Source: Octopus sinensis
Taxonomy: Eukaryota
Length of the DNA stretch: 64,000 nucleotides
Assembly (NCBI RefSeq): GCF_006345805.1
Contig: NC_042998.1
Location: 45,446,001 to 45,510,000, forward strand
Direction of reading: 5' to 3'
Position 1 is the first letter of the stretch. Each line of letters starts with the position of its first letter. Shown here one piece after another: positions 7,298 through 61,380 of this stretch. The notes beneath the pieces were generated by a model. It worked only from the letters and a program-made list of their open reading frames with translations, had not been told where the DNA came from and made no database searches. The position numbers and the translations under genes are program-made.

Positions 7298-7771
7298 TGT
7301 TACATACATAGTTGTCTGAGAAGCCATGGCAAGAGAAATATGGACACTAGTATATTTGTCAATAGAGTGGGTATATTAATCAAAGTTAATTGTATAATAG
7401 ATCTATTTCAACTGATCCCACCAATTGGTTTCACACTGGATATTAAATAACTGCATTAAGGTATACCTGGCATCCCTGAAGGCAACATTTTGTTATCTAT
7501 TACTCTGTGCAAAACTGCTTGACAAAACCAACTAAAATATGGCTCTATGACACTTTCGGCTTTGATTACTCTATATATATATATAATGGTAAAATATCTA
7601 TTTACCTTCATCCATTTAGTACACTCGGTAATGTAATTGCAATGCAATAAAAAACACTTGTGTATTAATAATTGGGTATTCTACAAGCAGTATATTGGAT
7701 AGATATTATCCCTTAGTTGGTTGGATTTACAACCTCTAAGTTTCTTTGAATATAATATATATTAATTACTA

Positions 7772-27754: not shown

Positions 27755-28130
27755 TACTAGCAGTATCGCCCGGTGTTGCTCGGGTTTGTAAGGGAAACAA
27801 CTATAAAGCATTTTTAGAGAGTTATAGCCAAAAAATGGGAAAAAAATGATGGTAAATTTTTTTTTAGTTAAAAAGGTCGACTTGCGTCCCCTAGACAGTC
27901 TGTGGTTTGTGTTTCTGATTCTCGACCCCATGTCGAATTTATCGGTTTTTTTCAGAACTGGGGGAACTTTTCAAAATTTTCGCTGCGTTAGTTTTGAATT
28001 ATGACATTGGGCTATGTGTGTGTCAAGTTTCATCAGAATCGGTTGAAAGCCGTGGTCAGGGTGAGGGTACGAGAAAACAGACACACAGAAACACACACAG
28101 ACAAACTGCCATTTATATATAGAGAGATAT
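27755..28130 (+). mobile_element. Helentron/Helitron-associated non-autonomous element (candidate)
   Basis: Starts TACTAGCAGTATCGCCCGGTGTTGCTCGGG (short hairpin) and ends acagacaaactgccatttatatatagagagat. The 5' part is shared with 54065. Confidence 0.55.
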
Positions 28131-31661: not shown

Positions 31662-31807
31662 CAAAGATAAACCATTACCAAAACTGCAAAACCCAGATAC
31701 CCATGGACTTTAAATGAGCGGACACATACTTGATAGAGAATGCAGGCCAAAGGCAGAGGAGTGAAGCCCATTCGCCGAGATAAGAGATCAGAATGATCTG
31801 TGAAAGC
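31662..31807 (-). CDS. TAPT1: TAPT1 homolog, coding exon
   Basis: 146 bp; attatag|GCT … TG|gtaagt. Translates AFTDHSDLLSRRMGFTPLPLACILYQVCVRSFKVHGYLGFAVLVMVYL, containing the conserved RRMGF.PLPLA motif. Confidence 0.95.
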
Positions 31808-31809
31808 CT

Positions 31810-31957
31810 ATAATAATTATAATAATAATAATATTAATAATAATAATAATAACAATAATAACAACAACAACAACAATAGTATTAAAAACAACAATGATAA
31901 CAATAGTAATAATAATAACAATAACAATAGCAATAACAACAAAACAATAATAATAAT
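31810..31957. repeat. (AAT/AAC)n microsatellite abutting a TAPT1 splice acceptor
   Basis: Read directly; it begins immediately beyond the acceptor AG at 31809-31808. Confidence 0.95.
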
Positions 31958-33019
31958 CCTATCTGCTGTAGGCACAAAGCCCGAAGTTTTAGTGGAGGAG
32001 GCTAGTTGATAACATCGACCCCAGTATTCAACTGGTACTTATTTCATTGACTCTGAAAACTTGAAATGCAAAGTTGACCTCAGTGGAGTTTGAACTCATA
32101 ATGTAACGATTGATGAAATCCCATTAATAATATTAAAACGCTAAATTTTTGTTTTTGTACATATCTGTTGTGTACATCACACTTCAAAGAAGTGTATGTA
32201 TCTGTTGTGTGCATCACACATATCTGTTCTGTGCATCTGTTGTACATATCTGTTGTGTGCATCACACTTCAAAGAAGTGGCAAAGTGATAGAGAGGAGGA
32301 CAGAGAGGAAGAGAGAGAGAGAGAGAGAGTGAGTGAGTGAGTGAGAGAGAAAAAAGATAGTGAAAGCGTTCATTTTGTGTTTTTAAATGTTTCAGAGGAG
32401 GTAAGAGAGAAAGATAGAGAGTGAGAGAGAGAGAAAAAGTGAGAGAGAAACAGAGAGAGTGAAAGAGACAGTGAGTGGTGATGGCGTTCATTTTGTGTTT
32501 TTAAATGTTTATTAAATCGCAAGAGAAGTAGACACATAGATACATACACACATTGTTAAATCAAAAGCAGGAGAGAAGAGGGACACAAAGGAAGTGAAAG
32601 AGAAAGAGGGAAAGTGAGAGAGACAGTAGATACATAAAGCCAAAGAAAATTTCATACATAGATACATACACACAACAAATATTGGATGTCAATTTCACTT
32701 TTCATTACCACACGAGGATAAAATTAACTTATAAATGGCTGAGTACGCCACAGATATGCATAACATTAATGTAGTTCTCAGGGAGATTCAGCCTCACACA
32801 ATATGACAAGGCTTTGAATTACAGCTACAACTTGAAACATATATTTATATATACAAAATGAGAAAATGGAGAAACATACCTAAATCAATCATCAACCATC
32901 AGATAATACCCACTCAATACTTTATTAGACCATTACACAACAGCAATGACATTATACATAATATATTACAAATATAACTAGACATGGAAATAGAAACAGA
33001 AAATACAATTACATTGTAG

Positions 33020-33128
33020 CTGACAGCTGTTTCGGCCATGAAGACAGGTATGTCCCATTTAACCTATTAGCCATATAAAGCAGGTATAAATGAGACATTA
33101 ACAAGAATGTCTCACGGCCTCTTCAGAG
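33020..33128 (-). ncRNA. Hammerhead ribozyme motif (left arm; sense to TAPT1 pre-mRNA)
   Basis: Reverse-complement copy: CTGAAGA-GGCCGTGA…TCATGGCC-GAAA-CAGCTG-TC. The stem II substitution converts a G-C pair to a tolerated G.U pair. Confidence 0.6.
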
Positions 33129-35283
33129 AATTTAATGTAAGTATGAAAAAAATTTACATATAAATAAATAAATATATAAATATAAAAATGTGTGCATAGA
33201 CACTCATAATTCTACACATATATATATACACAATAATACATTATAAACAATATATATCAATATACATTAACAAACACAATAATGTTCCATATTGAACTCA
33301 TAGTTCTATATCCAACATCAAGGAAATACATGAACACTCATATTTAGATTTAAAGCAGGCATATATATTTAACAGTCCAGTCTATTAAAATGTATAACCA
33401 CACAAAAAGTCAATAAAATTAATATTAATATTAATAATAATAATAATAACCATGATTGTACCATGTAAAGCAAGCGGACATCCACATATATACTTAATAA
33501 GTCGAATTCATCTGTCTGCTTGGTATTGATTTACATAGATAGATTCGATTGGCTTATAGATTTAAATTTGAATCACAATGGAAATTTTACGGTTAGTTAG
33601 CCAAGAAACACACATACGCACACGCACATCCATACATAGTTATATGTATACACACACACACACACACCCACACACAGACATAGCCACATACACAGCCAAA
33701 TCATAAATAAATAAATAAATAATATAAGATGTAGAATCGCAACTTTACACATGCAAAACAGAGAAACCCAACCGATTGCACATACATGCATGCAGACAGA
33801 CAGACATCAAGCCACCCCAAACGACACCATGGCTGTTGTATTAACTAAGTAGATCCACTCACATATTTCCATAAACAGTAAATGCAAACATACATATAAT
33901 TATATCCAGATAGAGAATGTAATTTTTCATAAGGTACATAATTCATATGACACCGTATTTTTCGTAAACATAGTATTTTATAACTAAAAAGTCCGCAAAT
34001 TTAACCGCTATGCTTTATTCAAACAATCGCTAATTTATAAAGTATAGAATACCCATTTCTGTTTGACTATCAAGAGACATAAAAAAATATATATACTAAG
34101 TTAACAACGGTTTATAATAATTAAATTATAAGAGATTAATTGTAAGAAGTCAAAATACGCTAATATTCTAAGATATATAATCACAATAACTCCTTATAGC
34201 ATAAACAGATATCATCCCTACGTAATAAATCCAATGTTATTACAATACTAATATTTTTCTATTTAAACCCTCACCGCGAACTAATAGAATTACACTCACA
34301 TCTACATGTCCATATGTATACTCATGTGTAACAACAGACATGCACATACACACCATATATTTTCACATATGATGTGCGTGTAAACATTCGTAGTACTTAT
34401 ATATATATATATATATATTTTTAAGCAACAGTGGACACATAAATACATATATAATAATTAACAGGATTTAGCATTAAATAATATCAGTGGAGGACTTACC
34501 AATAAATAGTATATAAGTAAATAACAAAAATTAAATTAATTATAAGTTAATAATTGTAATTACTTAAAATTAAAATGTAATAAGATAAAATTAGATGAAA
34601 TAATTAAAATTAAAATGAAAATATAAGTAAAAGCTTGTATACATATATATATATTATTATAATAAATAATGGATATGTATGTATATATCTACATATAAAT
34701 AAATAAATGAATAAATAAATAGATAAATACCATAGAAAACAAATTAAGATAAATACAAAGGTACACCTAATATATAGTACTGCTAATATGTATATATCCA
34801 CATATGCATAAATGAATAGATAGATAGATAAATAACATAAAATAAAATGAAAATATACATTGAAAAGAGTATATATATAAACTTAGTATACAGGCTACTA
34901 TTATGTAAATATTTACTATATATGTGGATGTCCGCTTGCTTTACATGGTACAATCATGGTTGTTATTATTATTATTATTATTATTAATATTAATTTTATT
35001 GACTTTTCGTGTGGTTATACATTTTAATAGACTGGACTGTTAAATATATATGCCTGCTTTAAATCTAAATATGAGTGTACATGTATTTCCTTGATGTTGG
35101 ATATAGAACGATGAGTTCAATATGGAACATTATTGTGTTTGTTAATGTATGTTGATATATATTGTTTATAATGTATTATTGTGTATATATATATGTGTAG
35201 AATTATGAGTGTCTATGCACACATTTTTATATTTATATATTTATTTATTTATATGTAAATTTTTTTCATACTTACATTAAATT

Positions 35284-35392
35284 CTCTGAAGAGGCCGTGA
35301 GACATTCTTGTTAATGTCTCGTTTATACCTGCTTTATATGGCTAATAGGTTAAATGGGACATACCTGTCTTCACGGCCGAAACAGCTGTCAG
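35284..35392 (+). ncRNA. Hammerhead ribozyme motif with long stem II insertion (right arm)
   Basis: CTGAAGA (35286-92); stem II GGCCGTGA(35293-300)/TCACGGCC(35371-78); GAAA (35379-82); C-AGCT-G palindromic stem III; GTC ends at 35390. Proximal stem I is only CT/AG. Confidence 0.6.
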
Positions 35393-35754
35393 CTACAACG
35401 TAATTGTATTTTCTGTTTCTATTTCTATGTCTAGTTATATTTGTAATATATTATGTATAATGTCATTGCTGTTGTGTAATGGTTTAATAAAGTATTGATT
35501 GGGTATTATCTGATGGTTGATGATTGATTTAGGTATGTTTCTCCATTTTCTCATTTTGTATTATTAATTTACGGTAATAATTTTACCCTTGCCCACATAA
35601 TACAGTAGATGAATTAATTGCATCGCAATTTTTAACATTTATGTATTAGTTTTGTTGGGTACCTCTCTAGCAGTATATTGGATATATGTTATCCCATGGA
35701 GGGTTGAATTTACAACCCTATCTCATTTTATAATATATATATATATATATATAT

Positions 35755-36066
35755 TATCATTGTTTGATTTCACTTTTTCAATATCAGTGTCAATCGACAC
35801 TGAAAAAGTATATGTATTTGTGAGCGAAACTGAATTCTCGTCGACAACTATGATTGTCACACGCTGATGATAGGTAAACACCTTGAAACTCGAGTCCGTG
35901 TGTATCATAAGTTGAAGACGGGAAGGATGACTTCCCTTCACAAATACTGATAGGGCACAGATAGTGTGTCTATAGCCAGCTGGAGGAGATATCTTCCTAG
36001 GGCTACAAACTACAGTAGCATCCACCCTTAGGGGTTAGCCATATTCAAATGACAAATATGCATCAC
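35755..36066 (+). mobile_element. Retrozyme-like / non-autonomous hammerhead-bearing element (312 bp) in (TA)n
   Basis: Non-coding unit flanked by (TA)n on both sides. It carries the hammerhead and several hairpins: TCAGTGTC/GACACTGA, GTATTTGTGA/TCACAAATAC, GGGAAG/CTTCCC. Confidence 0.65.
35845..35914 (+). ncRNA. Type I hammerhead ribozyme motif
   Basis: Stem I CACACG(35858-63)/CGTGTG(35897-902), extended by TATGAT/ATCATA and CAAC/GTTG. Core CTGATGA (35864-70). Stem II AGGT-aaac-ACCT closed by a T.T pair. GAAA (35885-88). Palindromic stem III C-TCGA-G. GTC cleavage triplet ends at 35896. Confidence 0.8.
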
Positions 36067-37272
36067 TATATATATATATATATATATGAATGTATTTGTG
36101 TATGTGTATAGTTTAGGTTAGTTAAAACATGTTTGTAATAATAAGTGTCGTATGGTGGAAATAAATGCAATTACCAAACTTTCATTCACAAGTCCATTTA
36201 TTATTTCGCTCTTTTGCATTTCAATTTGTACATTAAGGCTCTTTGAATACGTATGATGTATTTTAAGGTTGAATAGTAATTCTGTTTATGTTTGTGTAAC
36301 TGAGATATTTTGGTTGGATTATTTAGTCATTGGTGTTACATTACTTTCTATATTCTGTAACTGACACAATATACTTTTCGAGGCCTGAATTTTTTTGTGG
36401 GGAGGGGGTCAGTTTATTAGACTGGCCCCAGTACACAACTGATAATTTACCCACCCCAAAAAGACGAAAGGCAAAATTGATCTCGGCAGAATTTGAACTC
36501 AGAACATAAAGGCAGATGGTCATAATATGCAAACATTTTTCATGGCACCAGTATTTCCATGAATTTTTCATGGGTCCAGCTAGTGCTTATGATTCTGCCA
36601 GCTCACCATCTTAATAATAATGATAATGGTTTCAAATTTTGCCACAAGGGCAGCAATTTTTTATGGGAGGAGACTATTCAAATGGTACTTAATTTATCGA
36701 CCCTGAAAGGATGAAAGACAAAGTTGACCTCAGTGCAATTTGAACTCAGAACATGAGGACAGATGGAATACCACTAAAAGAGTAAAATGGAAAAAAATAA
36801 AATAAAGTAATATAATTGGATAAAGTACAATAGTGAGTAAAAAGTGAATTGGAAAAAAAATGATATAAATAATAGAATATATAATAACCATAATTCAATA
36901 AACAAGTATAATATGAGATGAATCAAAATATACGAAAAAAAATTTAAATATAAGAAAGAAGTATGGTATAAATTTCTAAGCCACAATTTGTGGTGTATAA
37001 GATAGATAAGGCTGACCGTAGTCACAGATTCATTCATATAGCGAATTTAAAGTGTATAATATATAAGAAAGTATTTATATTGCATACAATATAAGGGATT
37101 CTTTATTCTTTTACTTGTTTGAGTCATTTGACTGTGGCCATGCTGGAGCACCACCTTTAGTTGAACGAATCGATTGTAAGACTTATTCTTTGTAAGCCTA
37201 GTACTTTTAATCAATCAAAAATTCATTGGAAACAGCTGTAGTGGATTGACACATTATCCATCTGTTGTTATA

Positions 37273-38139
37273 CAAGGTCTGATCAATAAGTATCCGGACT
37301 GTTGCCATAGTAATAAAGCTAAAGTATGCAGGGTAAAGCTACTTAGCAAAATTAACCTACAACTCTGCTGTGCATGCGCACTAAGTTTTAACGTTCTAGC
37401 TCACTTCTGCTGTTTACAGCAGTGCTTGGAAGGAAGGTGTGTAGCATGTGATTGTTGCACTGACCATAACAGAGGAAGTTGTCATGGCGATACTTGTTCA
37501 GAGGCCTATACAAAGTTGCGGAAAGTGTATGGAGAGGAGTGTATGAGACACACACAAGTGTACGAGTGGTTCAGATGTTTTCAAGATGGCCAGAAAAAGT
37601 CAATATTGACGAACGTTATGGGAGACCAGTAGAACTGAGAAAAACATTGCAGATGTGCGTGCAGCTGTGAGGGAAAAATGTTGAATCACAATCCACAAGT
37701 TATCAGAAGATATGCAGATTAGTTACGGTTCAGTTCAGTCCATTATCACTGAAGATTTGAGTATGAGATGCGTGTCTGCAAAGTTTGTGCCAAAACTGCT
37801 TTCAGCTAACCAAAAAGACACTTGGGTTTCAGTTGCACAAGATCTCCTTGAGTGTGTTGAGAACAATGAAAACTTTGCATAGGCCTCTGCACATGTATTG
37901 CCAAGCTTTTGGTAAAATTTGATGCAGATTCTCTGCTCAATTTTCTCTGTCATGGTCAATGTGATGATCACACGTTACACACCTTCCTTCCAAGCATTGC
38001 TGTAAACAGTGGAAGTGAGTTAGAATGTTAGAACTTAGTGTGCCTGCACAGCAGAGTTCAAGTTTAATCTGTGCCAAGCTACTCTGTGTACTTTAGCTTT
38101 GTTACTATGGCAACAGTCCGGATACTTATTGATCAGACC
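37273..38139. mobile_element. Mariner-derived fold-back element with two 5' ends
   Basis: GGTCTGATCAATAAGTATCCGGACTGTTGCCATAG at both ends, inverted, extending ~250 bp. Transposase N-terminal remnants appear in both orientations (EAYTKLRKVYGEEC..TQVYEWF; MTEKIEQRICIKF..LGNTCAEAYAK; CVSAKFVPKLL). Confidence 0.85.
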
Positions 38140-40830
38140 GCTGGCTGGGAATTATCTGTGTATCTTGTTTTGTCCTATCGTCCTTTTTACCACATGTGTT
38201 TTTTCTGTTCTACCTTTGTTTTATATATATATAGGAGCACTCTGTTGGTTATGACGATGAGGGTCCCAGCTGATACGATCAACGGAACAGCTTGCTCGTG
38301 AAATTAACATGCAAGTGGCTGAGCATTCCACAGACATGTGTACCCTTACTTAACGTAGTTCACAAGGAGGTTCAGCGTGATACAGAGTATGACAAGGCTG
38401 GCCCTTTTTGAAATACAGGTACTACTCACCTTTGCCAGCTGAGTGGATTGGAGCAACGTGAAATGAAGTGTTTTGCTCAAAAACACAACGCATCGCCCGG
38501 TCCAGGAATCGAAACCACACTCTTACGATCATGAGGCTGACACCCTAACCACTAAACCATGCACCTCCACACACACACACACACACACACATATTCATCC
38601 TCCTATATATATATATTGAAATATTTCCATCAAATGCTTCATATTTTGAAATGCTCTAAATGAGGAAGGTTTATGTAATGGATGCATTGCCTATTATATA
38701 TTACGCAAACCTGAAAGCTACATATTAAATGATTTCAGAAAATCACTATTTGGTTTGGCTTCATTATTACAACATATATAATTTTAGTAATGTTGATTAT
38801 AAAGAAAAAAAAAACAGCTGAGGGAATATACTTCCTGAAAGTGTTCGCCATTATCATTATTTTACATCCTATTTTCCATCCTGCTGGAGAGTAGGATGTA
38901 AAATGGTCAGGTTGTCTGGGTGTCAATTAGTTCTTATTCAAAGTTAACTGCCCTCCTGGATGGAGGTGGGAGTGGGGATCATGCCTCATTTGTACATTCT
39001 GTTTTGGGCTTGATTTCTATGGTTGGATGCTCTACCAATTTTCAAAAACTTTACAGAATGTAGTGGGGACATATAATAAGGTCACCAAGACTAGAGAGGT
39101 TCTCTTATTCCCCAAAAAGTTTGAAAGAGTCCTCTCTACTCTGTGTTGTCTATTTGTTCATTGGCACCAGCGGCAAGCTGGCAGAAACATCAGCATGCTG
39201 GGTGAAATGCTTAGCGATATTTCATCTGCCGCTACGTTCTAAGTTCAAATTCCGCTAAGGTCGACTTTGCCTTTCTTCCTTTTGGGGATGATTAAATAAG
39301 TACCAGTTACGCACTGGGGTTGATATAATCGACTTAATCCGTCTGTCCTTGTTTGTCCCCTCTGTGTGTAGTCCCTTGTGGGCAGTAAAGAAATAAGAAA
39401 TAAGGAGGTTATGTGTGACAAAATGAGTCATCTCTTTGCTGTGTTATCTCAGTTTTTCTTTTTTCTTTTACACAACTGAGTGAGGAGAAAATGGATTGAC
39501 AGAAGTAAGGAGCAAGGAGGTTATAAGAGAGAGAAAGAGAGAGTAAAGAGGAGAGGCAGAATGAACGGTGGTAGGTGAAAGATAATAAAGAGAGAGAAAG
39601 AAGAGACAGCTGCATGATGGTGAGATGATGGAAGTGATGGTAATGGGAGAAAGAGAATGAGGATTATGGATCATCATCATCATCATCATCATCATCGTCG
39701 TCGTTTAACATCTGTTTTCCATGCTAGCATGGGTTGGACGGGTTGACTGGGGTCTGAGAAGCCAGGAGGCTGCACCAGGCTCCAGTCTGATCTGGCAGTG
39801 TCTCTACAGCTGGATGCCCTTCCTAACACTAACCACTCCGTGAGTGTAGTGGGTGCTTTCTTACATGCCACCGGCACAGGTGCCAGGGGAGGCTGGCAAC
39901 GGCCACGATCGGTTGGTGCTTTTTACGTGCCACCAGCACAGAAGCCAGTCAAGGTGGCGCTGGCATCGGCCACGTACGGATGGTGCATTTTACATGCCAC
40001 CGGCACAGGTATCACAAGGATATCATTAATAAGTGATTGGGGGAATAGTAATGGGTGAGACAGAGAAAGTGATATTGGATTGAGTAGTGGATCAGGAAGT
40101 GAGACAACAACAATGATAAGTGCTAGAAAGAAGAAAGGGATTGAATATGGAGATTTTCACTGTTTCCATCTCTCATTACATAAGTGGCATGATGTGAGAG
40201 AGAATGCTATCATCAAGATTTGTGAGAAGGATCTGAATGATAAATTCACTATCTCCACCTCAATCGTCATTTTTGTGTCATTTTTTTATGCTTGCAGGAA
40301 TTACACAAATCTACTTCAGCACAGTATTTACCACTTGTGATTATTTGTCATCTTCTTAATAAAATTCAACTTTTTGAGATTCAGTAGTCACCAGGTCTTC
40401 CCATGATTTTTCTCAGTTTTTTTCTTCAGCAGGTATGGTCCACTTTCTAGTACTTGGCACTTCTTTACACAACTGACATTCTCCATGTATATTACATACC
40501 TGTACCAATGAAGTTTTCTCTCTTGTACACTGCATCTGATTCCACTTGCATACACTTTATCTTTTAGCTCGTTTAAGCTCTGCCATTCATGCACACTAAC
40601 ATTATGCATGTATAAAAAAAAACCCAAAAAAACTTGTCTTATTTCTTTCCAGCTTTCGTCAAATTTCTATATTCAAAGTCCATATCCCACTAACCAAGCA
40701 AAATATTACTTCATACATGAGCATCATACAATCTAACTTTCACTCTAGTTGCTCCCTGAACTTTTCCTACTCTATTCTTACTCTAGTAACTATGCTTTTC
40801 GAACACCCACCTTCACTGTTAATAAGATTA

Positions 40831-41343
40831 CTGTAAATCTTCGAGTATAGTCCGCCCTTAAGTATAATACGCAGGGGATTTTTAGGGGGCTGTATTTCTG
40901 AAAAACCTAAACTTTGTGTATAATATGCACCCCTTCTCTAACTTGAGTCATATGTAATTAAGCCAGCAGCACCTAGTCAAACAAATACTTCCGCGCATGT
41001 GTAATACAATAATGGTGATGTTCTTAACTGTTATATGGGAATGTAAATATGTTTGCAAATTGTTTTTGTTACATGTTATTCTATGTTCTGAATACTTTCA
41101 TTTTAATAAATGTTGCTTACTGCAAATTATAGATGATTCTTCATTGCTTTCAGGCTTAGCTTAAGGTATTTTCACAACCGACATCACAAAATGCGTCTGA
41201 ATAAACATTACCGGACAGCAAATAGAGACTAGGACATTGCTTGGAAAATATTTTTCATTTTTAACCTCATATATAGTACGCACTAGGGATTTTGACCTTT
41301 AACTTTTGGGAAAAAAATGCAGATTATACTCGAGGATTTACGG
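40831..41343. mobile_element. TA-flanked MITE (Tc1/pogo-like) interrupting an RTE remnant
   Basis: TA|CTGTAAATCTTCGAGTATA … TATACTCGAGGATTTACGG|TA terminal inverted repeats. Confidence 0.8.
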
Positions 41344-41860
41344 TACTTAGTTAACAAAAACAGGAGATTGTTTAGAGATCCTTTTCCAAGCATTTGGAGA
41401 AATCTACTCCATAAACACACTTACTACAAATCACTCCTGTACATCTGGCATGAAAAAATATATCTGCCATCTCCATCAACTTACCTGTGTTCCCGTTCGA
41501 GGATTTTGCTTCCATGTTTGGAATTTCCTCTCCAAAATCTTTAACAGATTCAGCTGAGAACTAACTTCTCAGCAAACAAGTTTTTTTTACAAACAACTGG
41601 TTTTAAAGTCCCTTGATATGGTCTGGAAGACCAATAAGAAATAGGAGGCAGCTAAAAACTGAATCTTGATGGATATCAACATGCATCATTAAATTCCTTG
41701 CCAACTCTCACCTTGCTGATGGCACCTCTGTACATGGCTTGCACAGCTTTCACAAGCCAATCGCCTACTTTAGTTTGCTTTGTGAGATGCTACTATGAGG
41801 TTTATTCTCGATCATAATGCAGGAACTGTAATTGGGAAGAGTTAACGCAAAACTGCTTAC

Positions 41861-41920
41861 CTGTGTCTGACGACTTGATACCATATCTTGGGCCAAAATA
41901 AGAGAGAAATCTGCATAAAC
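41861..41920 (-). CDS. TAPT1: TAPT1 homolog, coding exon
   Basis: 60 bp; tttttttag|GTT … CAG|gtaagc. Translates VYADFSLILAQDMVSSRQTQ, in phase with both neighbours. Confidence 0.9.
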
Positions 41921-43987: not shown

Positions 43988-45075
43988 TCATCATCATCAT
44001 CATCATCATCGTTTAACGTCTGTTTTCCATGATAGCATGGGTTGGACGGTTCAACCAGGGTCTAGGAAGCCAGGAGGCTGCACCAGGCTCCAGTCTGATC
44101 TGGCAGTGTTTCTACTGCTGGATGCCCTTCCTAATGCCAACCACTCCGTGAGTGTAGTGGGTGCTTTTTATGTGCCACCTGCACAGGGGCCAGATGAGGC
44201 TGGCAAACGGCCACGATCGGTTGGTGCTTTTACGTGTCACCGACACGGATGCCAGTCAGGCGGCACTGGCAACTGCCACATTCGGATGGTGCTTTTAATG
44301 TGTCAACGGCACGGGTATCTTAACTACAATTTCCATTTGATTTTCATTTTGATGTTGGTGTTAACGTACTTGACTCAATAGGTCTCCTCAAGAACAGTGG
44401 GTCACTCTACGATCCAAGGTTAGCACAGCAGGTCATCCTGCAAGCCATGGACTCACTTCATTCGTCAGGTCTTCGAAGTCACAGCATATCTCCAGAGGTC
44501 TTGGTCTTTCGTCATAGCCTCTGTGAGGCTCAATGTATGAAGGTCATGCTTGACCACCTTGTCCATGTCTTCCTGGTCATGTACTACCTCTATCCTGGAT
44601 TCCTTCAACAGTTTGGGAGTGGTACTTCTTCACACATCTCTCATCCATCCGTAGTACATGACCATACCAATGTAAAAGTCTCTCTTGCACGTTGCATCTG
44701 ATGCTTCTTATGCCCAACATTTCTCTTAGGGCGCTTACACTCTGTCGTGCATGGACACTGACATTACACATCCAGCGGATCATGCTAGCTTCATTTCTTT
44801 TGAGCCTACGCATATCCTCCGCAGTCACGGCCCATGTTTCACTGCTGTGAAGCATGGCAATTTGCACACATGCATCGTACAATCTACCTTTCACTCTGAG
44901 CGAGAGACCCTTTGTCGCCAGTAGGGGAAGAAGCTTCCTAAACTTTGCCCAGGCTATTCTTATTCTAGTGGTAACACTCTCTGAGCACCCACCCTCCGCT
45001 ACTAACTTGGTCACCTAGGTACCGGAAACTATCAACTACTTCTAGTTTCTCCCCCAGGAGTGTAATGGAATCTGT
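43988..45075 (-). mobile_element. 5'-truncated RTE-clade LINE fragment with (GAT)n tail
   Basis: ORF 44577-45014 RIRIAWAKFRKLLPLL…RVKGRLYDACV..AMLH.SETW…RNEASM.RWMCNV is the RTE RT C-terminal region. The 3' end has AGGAAGGGCATCCAGC and a (TGA)n tail. Confidence 0.88.
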
Positions 45076-54064: not shown

Positions 54065-54470
54065 TACTAGCAGTATCGCCCAGCGTTGCTCGGGTTTGTA
54101 AGGGAAATAACTATATAAGCATTTTTAGAGATGTAAAGTATAATAGCCATCTCAATATGGCTAACCACAAAGGGGGGGGGGTGTTACTGTAGCTTTTTAC
54201 GTTCTGAGATTTAATAATACATTTTTAGAGAGTTACTTCCCTTATATAATAGCAACAAAATGCATTAAAAATGGGAAAAAATTATGATAAATGTTTTTTT
54301 TTAAATCGTAGACTCATCGTAGACATGCGCTAATACCCAGAAGGGCTCGATATGAATCACAACTATAAGATACCCGCTTTTGGTTACACTGCACCGCAAA
54401 ATGTGGGAGTAGTTAGGAATCTAAATCATAGGAGACAGACACACAACTTCACTTTTATATATAAAGATAT
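54065..54470 (+). mobile_element. Helentron/Helitron-associated non-autonomous element (candidate)
   Basis: Same 5' TACTAGCAGTATCGCCCAGCGTTGCTCGGGTTTGTAAGGGAAA as 27755; ends cttttatatataaagat. Confidence 0.55.
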
Positions 54471-56078: not shown

Positions 56079-56642
56079 TTGGGTTGTCTGGAAAGTCCGT
56101 GCCGATTTTTAAAGGAAAGAAAAAGGTCAATAAATACTTGCCATTACATTTTTAATCAACCAGATAGGAACCATTTTGTTGCACAATGCGTCTCCATCTT
56201 TCCTTGAACTTGAAAATACCCTCTTCCCAGAATTGAGGTGGTTTCATGGCAAAGAATTCATCAAGGTATATATTTGTCATCCAAGGAATTGAAATTTTTA
56301 CCATTAAGACTATTCTGCAGAGACCTGAATAAGTGGAAATCCGAAGGAGCAATATCTGGTGAATATGGAGGGTGGGGTAACACATCCCAGCTGAGCTGCA
56401 GCAATTTTTGTCTGGTTCCCAAAGCTTCAAGTGCTGAAAATGAACTTTCTTATCTTCCATTTTAAAGGGTTACAGAACTAACACAGGTTATAGGAACATA
56501 AACCCTGTTCCATGAAAAGATAGCTTAAACTGTGCTCTAAATGGAGGTGTAGTCAATTCCTATTTTATGGACTCAATCATGTTCTAAAATAAGTTGAAAG
56601 GTAAGCTACTATAAATCGTCACAAACTTTCCAGACAACCCAA
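56079..56642 (-). mobile_element. Internally deleted mariner element with TIRs and TA target duplication
   Basis: TA|TTGGGTTGTCTGGAAAG … CTTTCCAGACAACCCAA|TA. The minus strand encodes MEDKKVHF fused to WDVLPHPPYSPDIAPSDFHLFRSLQ…ERWRRIVQQNGSY. Confidence 0.9.
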
Positions 56643-57268: not shown

Positions 57269-59884
57269 ATTGCAGGCATGACTGTGTGGTCAAGAAGATT
57301 ACTTCCCAAACATGTGGTCTTGGGTTCAGTCCCTGTGCGTGGCAACTCGAACAAGTGATGGTAATGTGACAAGCTTTTTTTCTTTCTAAATCTCCACCTA
57401 CCAAATCCACTTGCAAGGCTTTGGTTGGACTGAAACTATAGAAGACATTTGTCCAAGGTGTCATGTAGTAGGACTGAACTTGAAACTATGGGAAACAAAC
57501 TTTTTAACCATACAGCGATGTTTGCACTTTCAGTGTCAATAATATGTTCCAGTCATGTCACATATTATAACAGATAATGACACTGAAAACCTGTGCTACA
57601 AATTAAAATTTTGTGAGTGAAATTCAATGCAAAAGTGTATGTATCATCATCATTATTTCACATCCACCTTCTATGGTGGAATGGGTTGGACAGTTTGACA
57701 GGATCTGGTTTCTATGACTGGAAGCTCTTCCTAAGCATCAACCACTTTACAAAATGTATTTACACTATTTGTCTACAGAGAGGAATTTTCTCCATGACAA
57801 GACACATTGAATAGTTTTAGTACAGGTTTACAGGTTTGAATATGCCTGAAGCATATTTGAACTGGTAATAACCTATTTATATATATCACTGCTTACACTG
57901 TCTCACCCAATACTTTACAGAGCATACTGAGTGCAAGAGAAAGAAAAAGCTCCCTCAGTTGAATGAGATTGCAGTAGAGAGGGTTGTGGCTTTATGACAA
58001 GTGTTGAGAGGCAAAAGTATAATAGAGGGACAGGAAGAGGTGTTTTGTTATAGATGAGATATGGCTACTCTGCATTATATAAAGGCAGATGCAAGTGGTT
58101 GGAAAGAGAGACAAAGACAGGTGGTAAAGAGGTATCAGGGTGTAGTATCAAGGTACAAGAAGATGAGTATAAGAGAGAAGACAGACATAGGATTGTGAAG
58201 TGTAGGTTGGTAAGTTAGTAAGAGTATCATAGAAGAGTGATAGGTGGTTAGAGTTGGCGGTAGAACTGAATGTAGTAAATGGTGAACAAGAATGGAGGAA
58301 TGGTCAATAATAGATATTAGTTTGAGGTGTAAGGTAAAAGAAATAGGGGTGTCTCAGGAAAAAGGTATTGTAGTGTGTGTGTATATGTGCTTGTGTGTGT
58401 GTGTGTGTGTGTGTGTATTGTTATTTTATAATAATTACTGGTATCCTTATATATTACTATATTTTATATGTAAAGCATAATATGTTATATGTTTGTATAT
58501 TATTGTAATTATCAGTTTAGTAAATAAATAAGTTAATATAATATAATGTCTAAAAGTTGATGAACTATCTATTGTTCTCCTCCATTTTCTTATTTGCTAT
58601 ATAAATTAATGGTAAAATATCTCTTCACCTTCACCCATTAATACACTAGGTAATGTAATTGCAATGCAATAAAGAACACTTGTGTATTAATAATTGGGTA
58701 TTCTACCAGCAGTATATTGGATAGATATTATCCCTTAGCAGGTTGGATTCACAACCTCTAACTTTCTTGGAGTTACATATATATATATATGTATATATAT
58801 TTCTCTTTCTCAGTTCTACAGCCTCCCCCCCTCCAACTATTAACACCTGCTGTCAAACCCAACAACAATGACCATCCTTCACAATACTACCCATTCTGCA
58901 CTTTCTCACTCACCTGCTGATTCTACTTCAACTTCTCTCAATGCCCTAATTACTCGCCCCTCTCTCTTCTTGCTCTGACTCTCTTATCTCTTCTTGCCCT
59001 TCCTTACTTCAACACTCCCCACATGCCCCTCAAGCCACCTACTTCCTTGCTCCGCTTACTTCTATTAGCTTTCCTCTTCACACATTTTACTTTTCAATTT
59101 CCCTGCATTATGATTTGAAATGTTAGGTACTTATGTCTCCACCCTGAAGACAGTGACTGGATTTAACTAATGTTTATATGCTTCCACTACTAGTTGTACG
59201 TCCATGACTTTTTGCGAACTGCACTCGTCAACATTATGGTGTAATTCCAAACCCCAAGAAACAGCTGTTGGATCTGTAATACCATACAAATTTTTTGTGT
59301 CTTTGTACTCTGTGTGAGCCTGTTCTGTTAATATATCGATATTGCTATATTTATACACACACACAAGATGGACTACTTTTAGTTTCTGTCAACCGAATCC
59401 ACTCACAATTCTTTGATCAGACTGGGCTATTGTAGAAGACATTTGCTCAAGGTGCCACACATTGGAACTGAACCAAGAACTATGTGGTTGGGAAACAAGC
59501 TTCTTACCACACAGCCAAACCTATACCCATAGCATGGAAAAATTTATGCAAAAACTTTTTTCATAAAACTAAAAATAAAAGTGAACCATCTTCAGATATT
59601 AAAAAGAAATTATTATTTAAAAATGAAAAGATTAATATTATATAAGAAATTCATTTTTAATTTTATCAAAATCAGTTTTTTTTTTGTTTTTATATTCAGT
59701 TTTTCCACTGTTAATAAAGAAGGATTTTGAAATTTTGAAAATTTGCATACAACTGGATCAATTATTTTCACAACAAAATTCTCTTGCTGTATAGGAGCTT
59801 ATTCCAGTTTTCCAGACGTTAAACACATAAGAAACACTTATTCCTCAAGACATATCAGTCTATAACAGGTTCTGCTCATGGTGG

Positions 59885-60564: not shown

Positions 60565-61380
60565 TCCAGGGGAAAAAACTACAAGTAGTTAATAGCTTCC
60601 GTTAACTAGATGACCAAGTCAGTACCAGGGGTGGATACTCTGAAAGAGTAGCTGCTAGAGTAAGGATAGCCTGGCAAAGTTCAGAGAGCTCCTACCTCTG
60701 CTGGTGACAAAGGGCTTCTCGCTCAGAGTAAAAGGTAGACTGTATGATGCATGTGTGCGAACAGCTATGCTATATGGCAGTGAAACATGGGCCATGACTA
60801 CTGAGGACATGCATAAGCTCGCAAGGAATGAAGCCAGTATGCTCCGCTGGATGTGTAATGTCAGTGTGCATACATGATAGAGTGAAAGCGCCCTGAGAGA
60901 AAAGTTGGTCTTAAGAAGCATCAGATGTCGTGTGCAAGAGAGGTGACTGTGCTGGTATGATCATGTGTTGCGAATGAATGAGGACAGCTGTGTGAAAAAG
61001 TGTTACACCCTAGCAGTTGAAGGAACATGTGGAAGAGGTAGACCCAAGAAGACCTGGGAAGAGGTGGTGAAGCACAACCTTCAAATATTGGGCCTCACCG
61101 AAGCAATGACAAGTGACCGAGACCTTTGGAGATATGGTGTGCTTGAGAAGACCCAGCAAGCCAAGTGGGACCATAACAATGGCCTATGCCAATGTTGTAT
61201 AACCAGCCTGTTTGAGAGTACCATTCAATCACTGGACAATAAACTATACTTGCAAAGACCTGTTGAGGCAAGTGAAATCGCTGTCGTGGCCAATGACAAT
61301 GCCGCCTGATTGGCACCCATGCCAATGAAACGTTAAAAGCACCGTTTGAGTGTGATCGTTGCCAGGGCTGCTGACTAAGA
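60565..61380 (+). mobile_element. 5'-truncated RTE-clade LINE fragment
   Basis: Frameshifted LSLRVKGRLYDACVRTAMLYGSETW…GTCGRGRPKKTWEEVV; same family as 44330-45075 but opposite orientation. Confidence 0.88.

What the first reader, a model, noticed from the sequence alone, without database searches (positions are those of the whole stretch)
35755..36066. Compact retrozyme-like RNA element with a type I hammerhead ribozyme inside a TAPT1 intron
Seen in sequence: a 312-bp non-coding unit between two (TA)n tracts. It has a complete hammerhead core (CACACG-CTGATGA-TAGGTaaacACCTT-GAAA-CTCGAG-TC/CGTGTG) and an extended, bulged stem I. A perfect 10-bp helix (35814-23/35938-47) encloses the ribozyme, and further hairpins cover most of the unit. 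Established: metazoan non-LTR retrozymes and Penelope-associated minimal hammerheads are short structured units with palindromic stem III loops that can cleave as dimers, and retrozymes produce circular RNAs. Inference: this is a cephalopod retrozyme-like family targeting (TA)n, with an unusual U.U pair in place of the canonical G10.1-C11.1. It is my best candidate for an undescribed system here.
Basis: partly seen in the sequence, partly recalled or inferred. Interest (0 to 1): 0.85.

Follow-up and report, generated by a model that had tools for sequence, protein, structure and literature searches.

The report
Hammerhead retrozyme family in octopus
A 312-base non-coding piece in an octopus gene's intron carries a textbook hammerhead ribozyme motif and belongs to a repeat family with many copies, so it is likely a small parasitic retroelement (a 'retrozyme') of a kind already known from mussels, corals and salamanders, predicted but not shown to cut its own RNA.

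Summary
35755-36066 lies between two (TA)n tracts and carries a complete type I hammerhead (35858-35902; cut after C35896; 0 of 200 shuffles as strong; Rfam RF00163 21.9 bits, under the cut-off). It sits in a TAPT1 intron but antisense to the gene. It is one copy of a repeat family: 20 of 24 listed runs (four organism labels) hold it, and thousands of contigs lay on the region. Family variants mostly spare the predicted helices (4 of 28 break a pair, 11 expected) and leave the invariant core untouched. The 'unusual' U·U pair is one of two states: 51-72% of depth has G10.1 and 42-77% has C11.1, and U·U is already described in axolotl HHR_Amex2. Size, low GC, no ORF and canonical hammerhead geometry fit metazoan non-LTR retrozymes. 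Tandem arrays, cleavage, circles and family-wide TA targeting were not shown. Verdict: a real, apparently unreported cephalopod member of a known kind.

The parts
35755..36066 (+). Retrozyme-like monomer (312 bp; 314 bp if the AT at 35753-54 belongs to it), non-coding, one copy of a multi-copy family
   Evidence: no Pfam hit in its frames; no tRNA
35858..35902 (+). Type I hammerhead: helix I 6 bp, core CUGAUGA, helix II (U·U plus 3 bp, loop UAAACA), GAAA, 2-bp palindromic helix III, UC; predicted cut after C35896; unpaired U1.7 at 35903
35833..35924 (+). Extended, bulged helix I around the ribozyme (35849-54/35904-09 and further out)
   Evidence: MFE structure and pair probabilities 0.49-1.0 for 35849-54/35904-09
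35814..35947 (+). 10-bp enclosing helix 35814-23/35938-47; the family's two common changes in it give G·U pairs
35953..36053 (+). 3' hairpin cluster (35953-71, 35982-97, about 36025-35, 36038-53); most abundant part of the family
35733..35754 (.). Left (TA)n tract; also the 3' end of the neighbouring Penelope-type element
36067..36086 (.). Right (TA)n tract
34910..35732 (+). Neighbouring, non-homologous Penelope-type element (pLTR-like) with a second hammerhead at 35286-35390 (long helix II, 2-bp palindromic helix III, short helix I)
32840..33499 (-). Inverted copy (97.1%) of that element, with its hammerhead at 33126-33022
31808..41860 (-). TAPT1 intron (between the exons for aa 371-390 and 391-438 of the O. 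bimaculoides protein) that hosts all of the above

Best explanation
The unit is one copy of a many-copy, non-coding repeat family with a complete type I hammerhead motif, and is likely a non-autonomous retroelement of the metazoan non-LTR retrozyme kind that Penelope-like elements (PLEs) likely copied into a (TA)n microsatellite. Predicted cycle: (+)-strand transcripts of source copies (likely head-to-tail multimers elsewhere in the genome) would be cut after C17, more efficiently when two palindromic helix III halves pair as a dimer; the cut RNA (linear or ligated into a ~314-nt circle) would be reverse-transcribed at a nick in (TA)n by a PLE RT-endonuclease, giving mostly 5'-truncated or monomeric copies. 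This copy is a lone monomer of the U·U subfamily lying antisense in a TAPT1 intron, so it would not cut the host pre-mRNA. Shown: motif, repeat family, structure-sparing variation, two states at 10.1/11.1, orientation. Inferred: cleavage, dimers, circles, the PLE partner, TA targeting.
For: Motif beyond chance (0 of 200 shuffles; RF00163 full-length match). Family: 20 of 24 listed runs, 9 studies, four organism labels, word share 0.31-0.66; 4611, 4092, 1688 and 116 contigs laid on the 661-bp stretch (flank repeats included), summed depth at the core about 5,900-7,700 times that of single long contigs in three runs (about 190-250 if every 31-mer were counted apart; not a true copy number). Of the 28 listed variants inside the unit 18 are unpaired, 6 keep a pair (all via G·U on the + strand), 4 break one; null mean 11.1, P 0.00035; the only listed core change is at the free position N7. 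One X10 contig carries G10.1, C11.1 and loop II UCAAUA together, close to the Rfam consensus loop CAAAUA. Geometry (6-bp helix I, 4-bp helix II, 2-bp palindromic helix III) is the 'canonical' metazoan one, not the PLE-minimal one (PMC4209133); size 150-450 bp and GC <50% fit (PMC7229834). Helix III is not formed in the monomer (P about 0; 3.6 kcal/mol penalty) but self-pairs as a duplex at -10.7, as in dimer-cleaving motifs. Loose ends run past 36066 into letters like the unit's own start (8/9 in X8, P 2.7e-4; 6/9 in X2; 4/9 in X1). Depth rises 18-28 fold 5' to 3' in three runs; PLE insertions are 5'-truncated. A PLE-type hammerhead element ends at the same TA tract; (TA)n bias is reported for Naiad PLEs and microsatellite bias for Neptune; O. 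vulgaris has 31 recently active Penelope-like families.
Against: No tandem copy in the window and no end-to-start joint among the 8 joints listed (the tool skipped both TA tracts). A flat depth profile would be expected from circular templates or arrays, but depth is strongly 3'-biased; divergence of the 5' part among subfamilies may explain some of it. The run-on evidence is 9 letters, read post hoc from 24 of 624 loose ends, in runs that are not independent. Only 40 of 74 variant rows were shown, and variants inherited in one subfamily are not independent events. No PLE coding sequence was linked to the unit, and it has no homology to the neighbouring PLE-type element (z -0.7). In Xenopus only 1 of 9 predicted retrozyme dimers cleaved in vitro, so an intact motif does not guarantee activity.
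Confidence: 0.68

Rival explanations
1. The unit is the pseudo-LTR / 3' end of a longer autonomous Penelope-like element (for example Neptune clade), left as a solo, 5'-truncated insertion; the hammerhead would process the PLE precursor RNA.
For: 3'-biased depth; run-on letters like the unit's start also fit a pLTR 'tail'; Xenopus retrozymes are homologous to PLE pLTRs, so the two readings overlap; PLE microsatellite bias.
Against: Canonical, not minimal, hammerhead geometry (no long helix II, no extra nucleotide after A9); the whole unit folds as a compact self-paired RNA; a typical PLE-type hammerhead next door looks quite different; no Pfam RT or GIY-YIG match in 23 frames of 32.8-36.1 kb tested.
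Confidence: 0.15
2. It is a SINE-like element mobilised by a microsatellite-associated LINE (Dong/R4, Tx1 or RTE), whose ribozyme trims the 5' end of read-through transcripts, so that most copies are the ~170-nt piece 3' of the cut.
For: Depth roughly doubles across the bin boundary at the cut site in 4 of 4 runs (1.9-2.1 fold); some long contigs start at 35894 with non-matching upstream sequence; Dong-R4, L1-Tx1 and RTE are recently active in O. vulgaris.
Against: Those contigs start 3 bases before the cut, at the conserved GUC, which fits a subfamily with another helix II/III as well; no tRNA head or A/B box on the + strand; no shared LINE tail was tested.
Confidence: 0.1
3. The structure is selected at the single-stranded DNA level (Helitron-type element), and the hammerhead is a passenger.
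For: A 401-bp element with Helitron-like ends (54067-54467, minus strand, A|TC...CTAG|T) shares about 63 nt with the unit's 3' end (z 9.3); both strands fold equally well.
Against: The unit itself lacks TC...CTRR ends; the ribozyme core is spared in the family, and the pair-keeping variants are G·U on the ribozyme strand; capture of a fragment by the Helitron explains the match.
Confidence: 0.04
4. It is a domesticated intronic ribozyme that regulates TAPT1, like the conserved amniote intronic hammerheads.
For: It lies in a TAPT1 intron.
Against: Antisense to TAPT1; member of a high-copy family; no listed contig spans it with both flanks in the four runs laid (table cut).
Confidence: 0.02

Closest known systems
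Metazoan non-LTR retrozymes (Cervera and de la Pena 2020, PMC7229834; parts 2-4 of 6 read, supplement not readable): mussel ~350-390 bp, coral 220-245 bp, axolotl 330/350 bp
   Same: Non-coding unit of 150-450 bp, GC <50%, canonical type I hammerhead with short helix III, highly self-paired fold, many copies; mussel is also a mollusc.
   Different: Here a lone monomer between (TA)n tracts; tandem arrays, cleavage and circles not shown; strong 3' bias of family depth; sequence homology to the published families was not tested.
Axolotl HHR_Amex2 (PMC7229834)
   Same: U·U mismatch at the base of helix II, 2-bp helix III capped by a tetraloop; that motif cleaves 22% in 1 h as a monomer and much better as a dimer.
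   Different: In axolotl the U·U and G-C types are two separate repeat families; here both states occur among contigs that align to one unit at >=80%.
Vertebrate non-LTR retrozymes as PLE derivatives (Li, Clavereau and Pollet 2026, bioRxiv 10.64898/2026.07.22.740005; parts 1-3 of 5 read)
   Same: Dispersed monomers are common, about 43% of Xenopus copies are intronic, PLEs are the proposed source and motor.
   Different: Sample was 31 vertebrates, 3 insects and 1 coral; no microsatellite targeting reported in the parts read.
Penelope-like element pLTR hammerheads (Cervera and de la Pena 2014, PMC4209133; parts 1-2 of 4 read)
   Same: Type I topology, palindromic helix III, dispersed single motifs.
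   Different: PLE motifs have long helix II, short helix I and often an extra base after A9; that describes the neighbouring motif at 35286-35390, not the finding.

Membership tests
Type I hammerhead ribozyme (RF00163) | All invariant core bases and three helices with open helix I | tested here: met
Type I hammerhead ribozyme (RF00163) | Score at or above Rfam gathering threshold (34 bits) | tested here: not met
   21.9 bits; the alignment marks the U·U pair as non-standard
Type I hammerhead ribozyme (RF00163) | Loop II / helix I tertiary contact nucleotides (unpaired U1.7, terminal A of loop II) | tested here: met
   U35903 and A35880 in sequence; contact described in PMC11875169 passages; the contact itself is inferred
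Type I hammerhead ribozyme (RF00163) | Site-specific self-cleavage | not testable with these tools
   needs in vitro transcription
Metazoan non-LTR retrozyme | Unit 150-450 bp, GC <50%, no ORF | tested here: met
   312 bp, GC 0.40; no Pfam match
Metazoan non-LTR retrozyme | Many genomic copies with conserved ribozyme and fold | tested here: met
Metazoan non-LTR retrozyme | Head-to-tail tandem copies in the genome | tested here: inconclusive
   none in window; no joint listed, but 9-letter run-on like the unit's start in loose ends
Metazoan non-LTR retrozyme | Expressed as linear and circular monomeric RNA | not testable with these tools
   only contigs were available; they show neither strand nor circles
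Penelope-like element (pLTR or 3' end) | Linked RT and GIY-YIG ORF | tested here: inconclusive
   no Pfam match in 23 short frames near the unit; other copies could not be read
Penelope-like element (pLTR or 3' end) | Minimal-type hammerhead (long helix II, short helix I) | tested here: not met
   unit has canonical geometry; the neighbour at 35286-35390 has the PLE type
tRNA-derived SINE | tRNA-like head with A and B boxes | tested here: not met
Helitron | 5' TC and 3' CTRR ends with subterminal hairpin (recalled hallmark) | tested here: not met
   unit ends read TATC... and ...TCAC

The most novel reading that the evidence does not exclude
A cephalopod retrozyme that spreads like a SINE: dispersed, (TA)n-targeted, mostly 5'-truncated monomers whose 5' ends are set by the ribozyme's own cut, in two co-amplified forms (G10.1-C11.1 and an attenuated U·U form), driven by the Penelope-type family whose inverted pLTRs end in the same TA tract. 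It would give a direct genomic record of hammerhead cleavage in vivo and a named retrozyme-PLE pair.
Probability: 0.2. Interest if true: 0.55.

Novelty: new member of a known kind. Interest (0 to 1): 0.33.

Why it matters
It extends hammerhead-bearing retrozymes to cephalopods, where I found no report (paper searches; one key supplement unread). Two features are useful to specialists: natural G-C and U·U versions of one ribozyme in one family allow a clean test of how much activity a retrozyme needs, and a retrozyme and a PLE-type element stacked in one (TA)n target make the open question of which retrotransposon moves retrozymes testable in a chromosome-level octopus assembly. It is not a new kind of system.

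Tried and rejected
No whole genome is held for this window, so copy number, flanks and arrays could not be counted directly. Rfam found no hammerhead on 801 nt or on the whole window. Pattern scans: 0 in viral contigs; 0 for the family-specific pattern and 5 stretches in 4 loci for a looser one in metagenomes; none is homologous beyond the core (L001 an unrelated 662-nt repeat with a hammerhead; L002-L004 one bacterial sequence without helix I). No RNA holder listed; X10 is only a guessed RNA run, its unit depth is not raised over the flanking repeat, so it says nothing on expression. Folding z-score rejected as strand evidence; 11 of 204 window tiles fold as well (3 of 167 at GC <=0.42). Three of my hand-set helix coordinates (hpA, hpD, hpE) were off register and are not used. 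No homology between the unit and the neighbouring PLE-type element or its paralogs. No tRNA, A box, exact octamer or polyA signal in the unit. PDB had no TAPT1 match. PMC12602865 passages gave nothing on Neptune targets. The supplement of PMC7229834, which shows further invertebrate retrozymes, could not be read and may include a cephalopod. Earlier-finding look-ups by sequence, place and the first word list were empty.

Full report
Observation. The 312-bp unit 35755-36066 is as described: it lies between (AT)11 (35733-35754) and (TA)10 (36067-36086), has GC 0.40 against 0.37 for the window, and carries every invariant hammerhead base: C3-A9 at 35864-35870, G12-A15.1 at 35885-35888, U16.1 and C17 at 35895-35896. 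Helix I is 6 bp (35858-63/35897-902) and continues past a 3x1 internal loop; helix II is U·U plus three pairs with a 6-nt loop (or four pairs with a tetraloop); helix III is 2 bp within the 8-nt palindrome ACUCGAGU. A descriptor scan of both strands gave 2 loci, and only this one has helix I >=6 and helix II >=4 bp; 200 dinucleotide shuffles of the window gave none of that strength. Rfam RF00163 aligns over all 45 positions at 21.9 bits, under the gathering score of 34, and was missed in the larger searches. The 10-bp enclosing helix has pair probabilities 0.80-1.0. The unit folds better than all 100 shuffles, on both strands alike (z -4.5, -4.7).

Context. A DUF747 exon matches TAPT1 of Octopus bimaculoides. 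tblastn places eight coding segments on the minus strand, five internal ones 93-100% identical; exons 41861-41920 and 31664-31807 flank the unit. The window is therefore likely from an Octopus species (inference), the intron claim holds, but the ribozyme is antisense to the pre-mRNA and would not cut it.

It is a family. No genome was held and the window has no second copy. Of 24 listed runs 20 hold the unit, from 9 studies and four organism labels, none with more than 0.66 of its words. Laying four runs at 80% likeness on 35600-36260 gave 4611, 4092, 1688 and 116 contigs, flank repeats included. Summed depth at the core is about 5,900-7,700 times that of single long contigs in the three large runs, or about 190-250 if each 31-mer were counted apart; the tool warns that this is no copy number, so I read it only as hundreds to thousands. 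The tool showed 40 of 74 variant rows, 28 inside the unit. Against the catalytic fold 18 are unpaired, 6 keep the pair and 4 break it, where the same substitution types placed at random break 11.1 on average (P 0.00035; variants of one subfamily are not independent). All six pair-keeping changes involve G·U on the + strand. The only listed change among C3-A9 and G12-C17 is at the free N7. Loose ends show, read by eye, a U-A to C-G swap in the last hairpin (36042/36049) and a helix III variant that still self-pairs through G·U (table 7).

The U·U pair. G replaces U at 10.1 in 69, 53, 72 and 51% of depth, and C replaces U at 11.1 in 57, 61, 77 and 42%; one X10 contig (depth 70.1) shows both, with loop II UCAAUA, near the Rfam consensus CAAAUA. 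So the canonical G-C pair is the commoner state and U·U marks a sizeable subfamily. U·U at the base of helix II with a 2-bp helix III is published for axolotl HHR_Amex2, which cleaves 22% in an hour as a monomer and much better as a dimer (PMC7229834, part 3). The trait is neither unique nor fatal.

Organisation. Depth rises 18-28 fold from the first 70 bases to the 3' part in the three large runs (7 fold in X10) and about doubles across the cut site in 4 of 4 runs. This fits 5' truncation as in PLEs (PMC8969392 passage), or ribozyme-set 5' ends, but also subfamily divergence: loose ends show another sequence at 35905-35920 in many contigs, and long contigs that start at 35894 start at the conserved GUC, not at the cut. 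No end-to-start joint is among the 8 joints listed, but the tool skipped both TA tracts. Loose ends behind 36045 continue past the unit's end into 9 letters that match its start (35753-35761) at 8, 6 and 4 places in X8, X2 and X1 (chance 2.7e-4, 0.019, 0.23 at one offset). That is a hint of head-to-tail or circularly permuted copies of about 314 bp, no more (24 of 624 loose ends shown).

Directly upstream, 34910-35571 and 32840-33499 form an inverted pair at 97.1%. Each holds a second hammerhead (35286-35390 on +, 33126-33022 on -) with a very long helix II, a 2-bp palindromic helix III and a 2-bp helix I, the build described for PLE pLTR motifs such as Drosophila virilis Penelope (PMC4209133, part 2); inverted pLTRs are a PLE trait (10.1101/2021.04.23.441226 passages). 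The + copy runs on to the TA tract that flanks the finding, and two older paralogs of its 3' end (58515-58801, 7566-7771) also end in TA runs. It is not homologous to the unit (z -0.7), Rfam does not call its motif, and no RT or GIY-YIG match was found in 23 short frames around it, so its PLE identity is inferred from architecture. It shows that a second hammerhead-bearing family uses TA sites here, and it means the left TA tract cannot be credited to the unit alone.

Mechanism. Most likely (0.68) the unit is a non-LTR retrozyme monomer. Transcripts of source copies would be cut after C17; helix III is not formed in the monomer ensemble (3.6 kcal/mol above the minimum) while the palindrome pairs with a second copy at -10.7 kcal/mol, so dimers would cut better; unpaired U1.7 and a terminal loop II A are in place for the tertiary contact described in PMC11875169 (passages). 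Cut RNA could be ligated by RtcB, as shown in vitro for axolotl and mussel monomers, and copied into (TA)n by a PLE; PLEs are the proposed motor, microsatellite bias is reported for Naiad and Neptune, and O. vulgaris has 31 recently active Penelope-like families (PMC13282606 passage). None of these steps was observed here, and in Xenopus only 1 of 9 predicted dimers cleaved. Rivals: solo pLTR of an autonomous PLE (0.15), ribozyme-trimmed SINE of a LINE (0.10), Helitron-type DNA element (0.04; a Helitron-like element at 54067-54467 shares 63 nt with the 3' end), host regulatory ribozyme (0.02).

Comparison and novelty. It works like, and on the testable features belongs with, the metazoan non-LTR retrozymes; the tandem criterion is inconclusive and expression untestable. 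Paper searches listed no cephalopod hammerhead family: the retrozyme papers listed show 0 occurrences of 'octopus' except two with one mention each, and one search found 2 papers, neither on this by title and abstract; the supplement of PMC7229834 could not be read, and repeat libraries may hold the family unannotated. Read: 10.64898/2026.07.22.740005 parts 1-3 of 5; PMC7229834 parts 2-4 of 6; PMC4209133 parts 1-2 of 4; passages only of 10.1101/2021.04.23.441226, PMC13282606, PMC6155905, PMC12602865, PMC5680766, PMC11875169, PMC8969392. Earlier scan notes list similar elements in other eukaryotes; I did not check them. Verdict: real, a new member of a known kind, interest 0.33.

Noticed in passing
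window 32840-33499 (-) and 34910-35732 (+): 660-bp inverted repeat (97.1%) around a 1410-bp unique spacer, each arm with a Penelope-type hammerhead (35286-35390; 33126-33022) not called by Rfam; both copies end at TA-rich sites. Likely a recent PLE insertion with an inverted pLTR.
   Followed up: partly
window 58515-58801 and 7566-7771: Older (about 73%) 5'-truncated paralogs of that element's 3' end, each ending in a TA run; the family is very deep in the laid runs (35600-35714).
   Followed up: partly
window 54067-54467 (-): 401-bp Helitron-like element (A|TC...CTAG|T, subterminal hairpin) that carries about 63 nt homologous to the unit's 3' end (75%, z 9.3); a related 3' end at 27757-27820.
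   Followed up: partly
window 36106-36260: The right flank is itself a moderately repeated sequence in all four runs laid, with no second copy in the window.
   Followed up: no
L001 272-304 and 934-966 (-): Unrelated metagenome contig with an exact 662-nt period and a hammerhead (RF00163, 34.9 bits) that has the same helix III palindrome as the unit; the period resembles the 661-bp Euglena units of earlier scan notes.
   Followed up: partly
window 37180-37632, 44577-45014, 60947-61309, 56152-56469: Transposon remnants in TAPT1 introns: a Mos1-type HTH (Pfam HTH_48) and frames that look by eye like RTE-type LINE and mariner pieces (no significant Pfam match).
   Followed up: no
window 41867 (+): Weak descriptor match to a hammerhead overlapping a TAPT1 exon (helix II 2 bp); judged chance.
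   Followed up: yes
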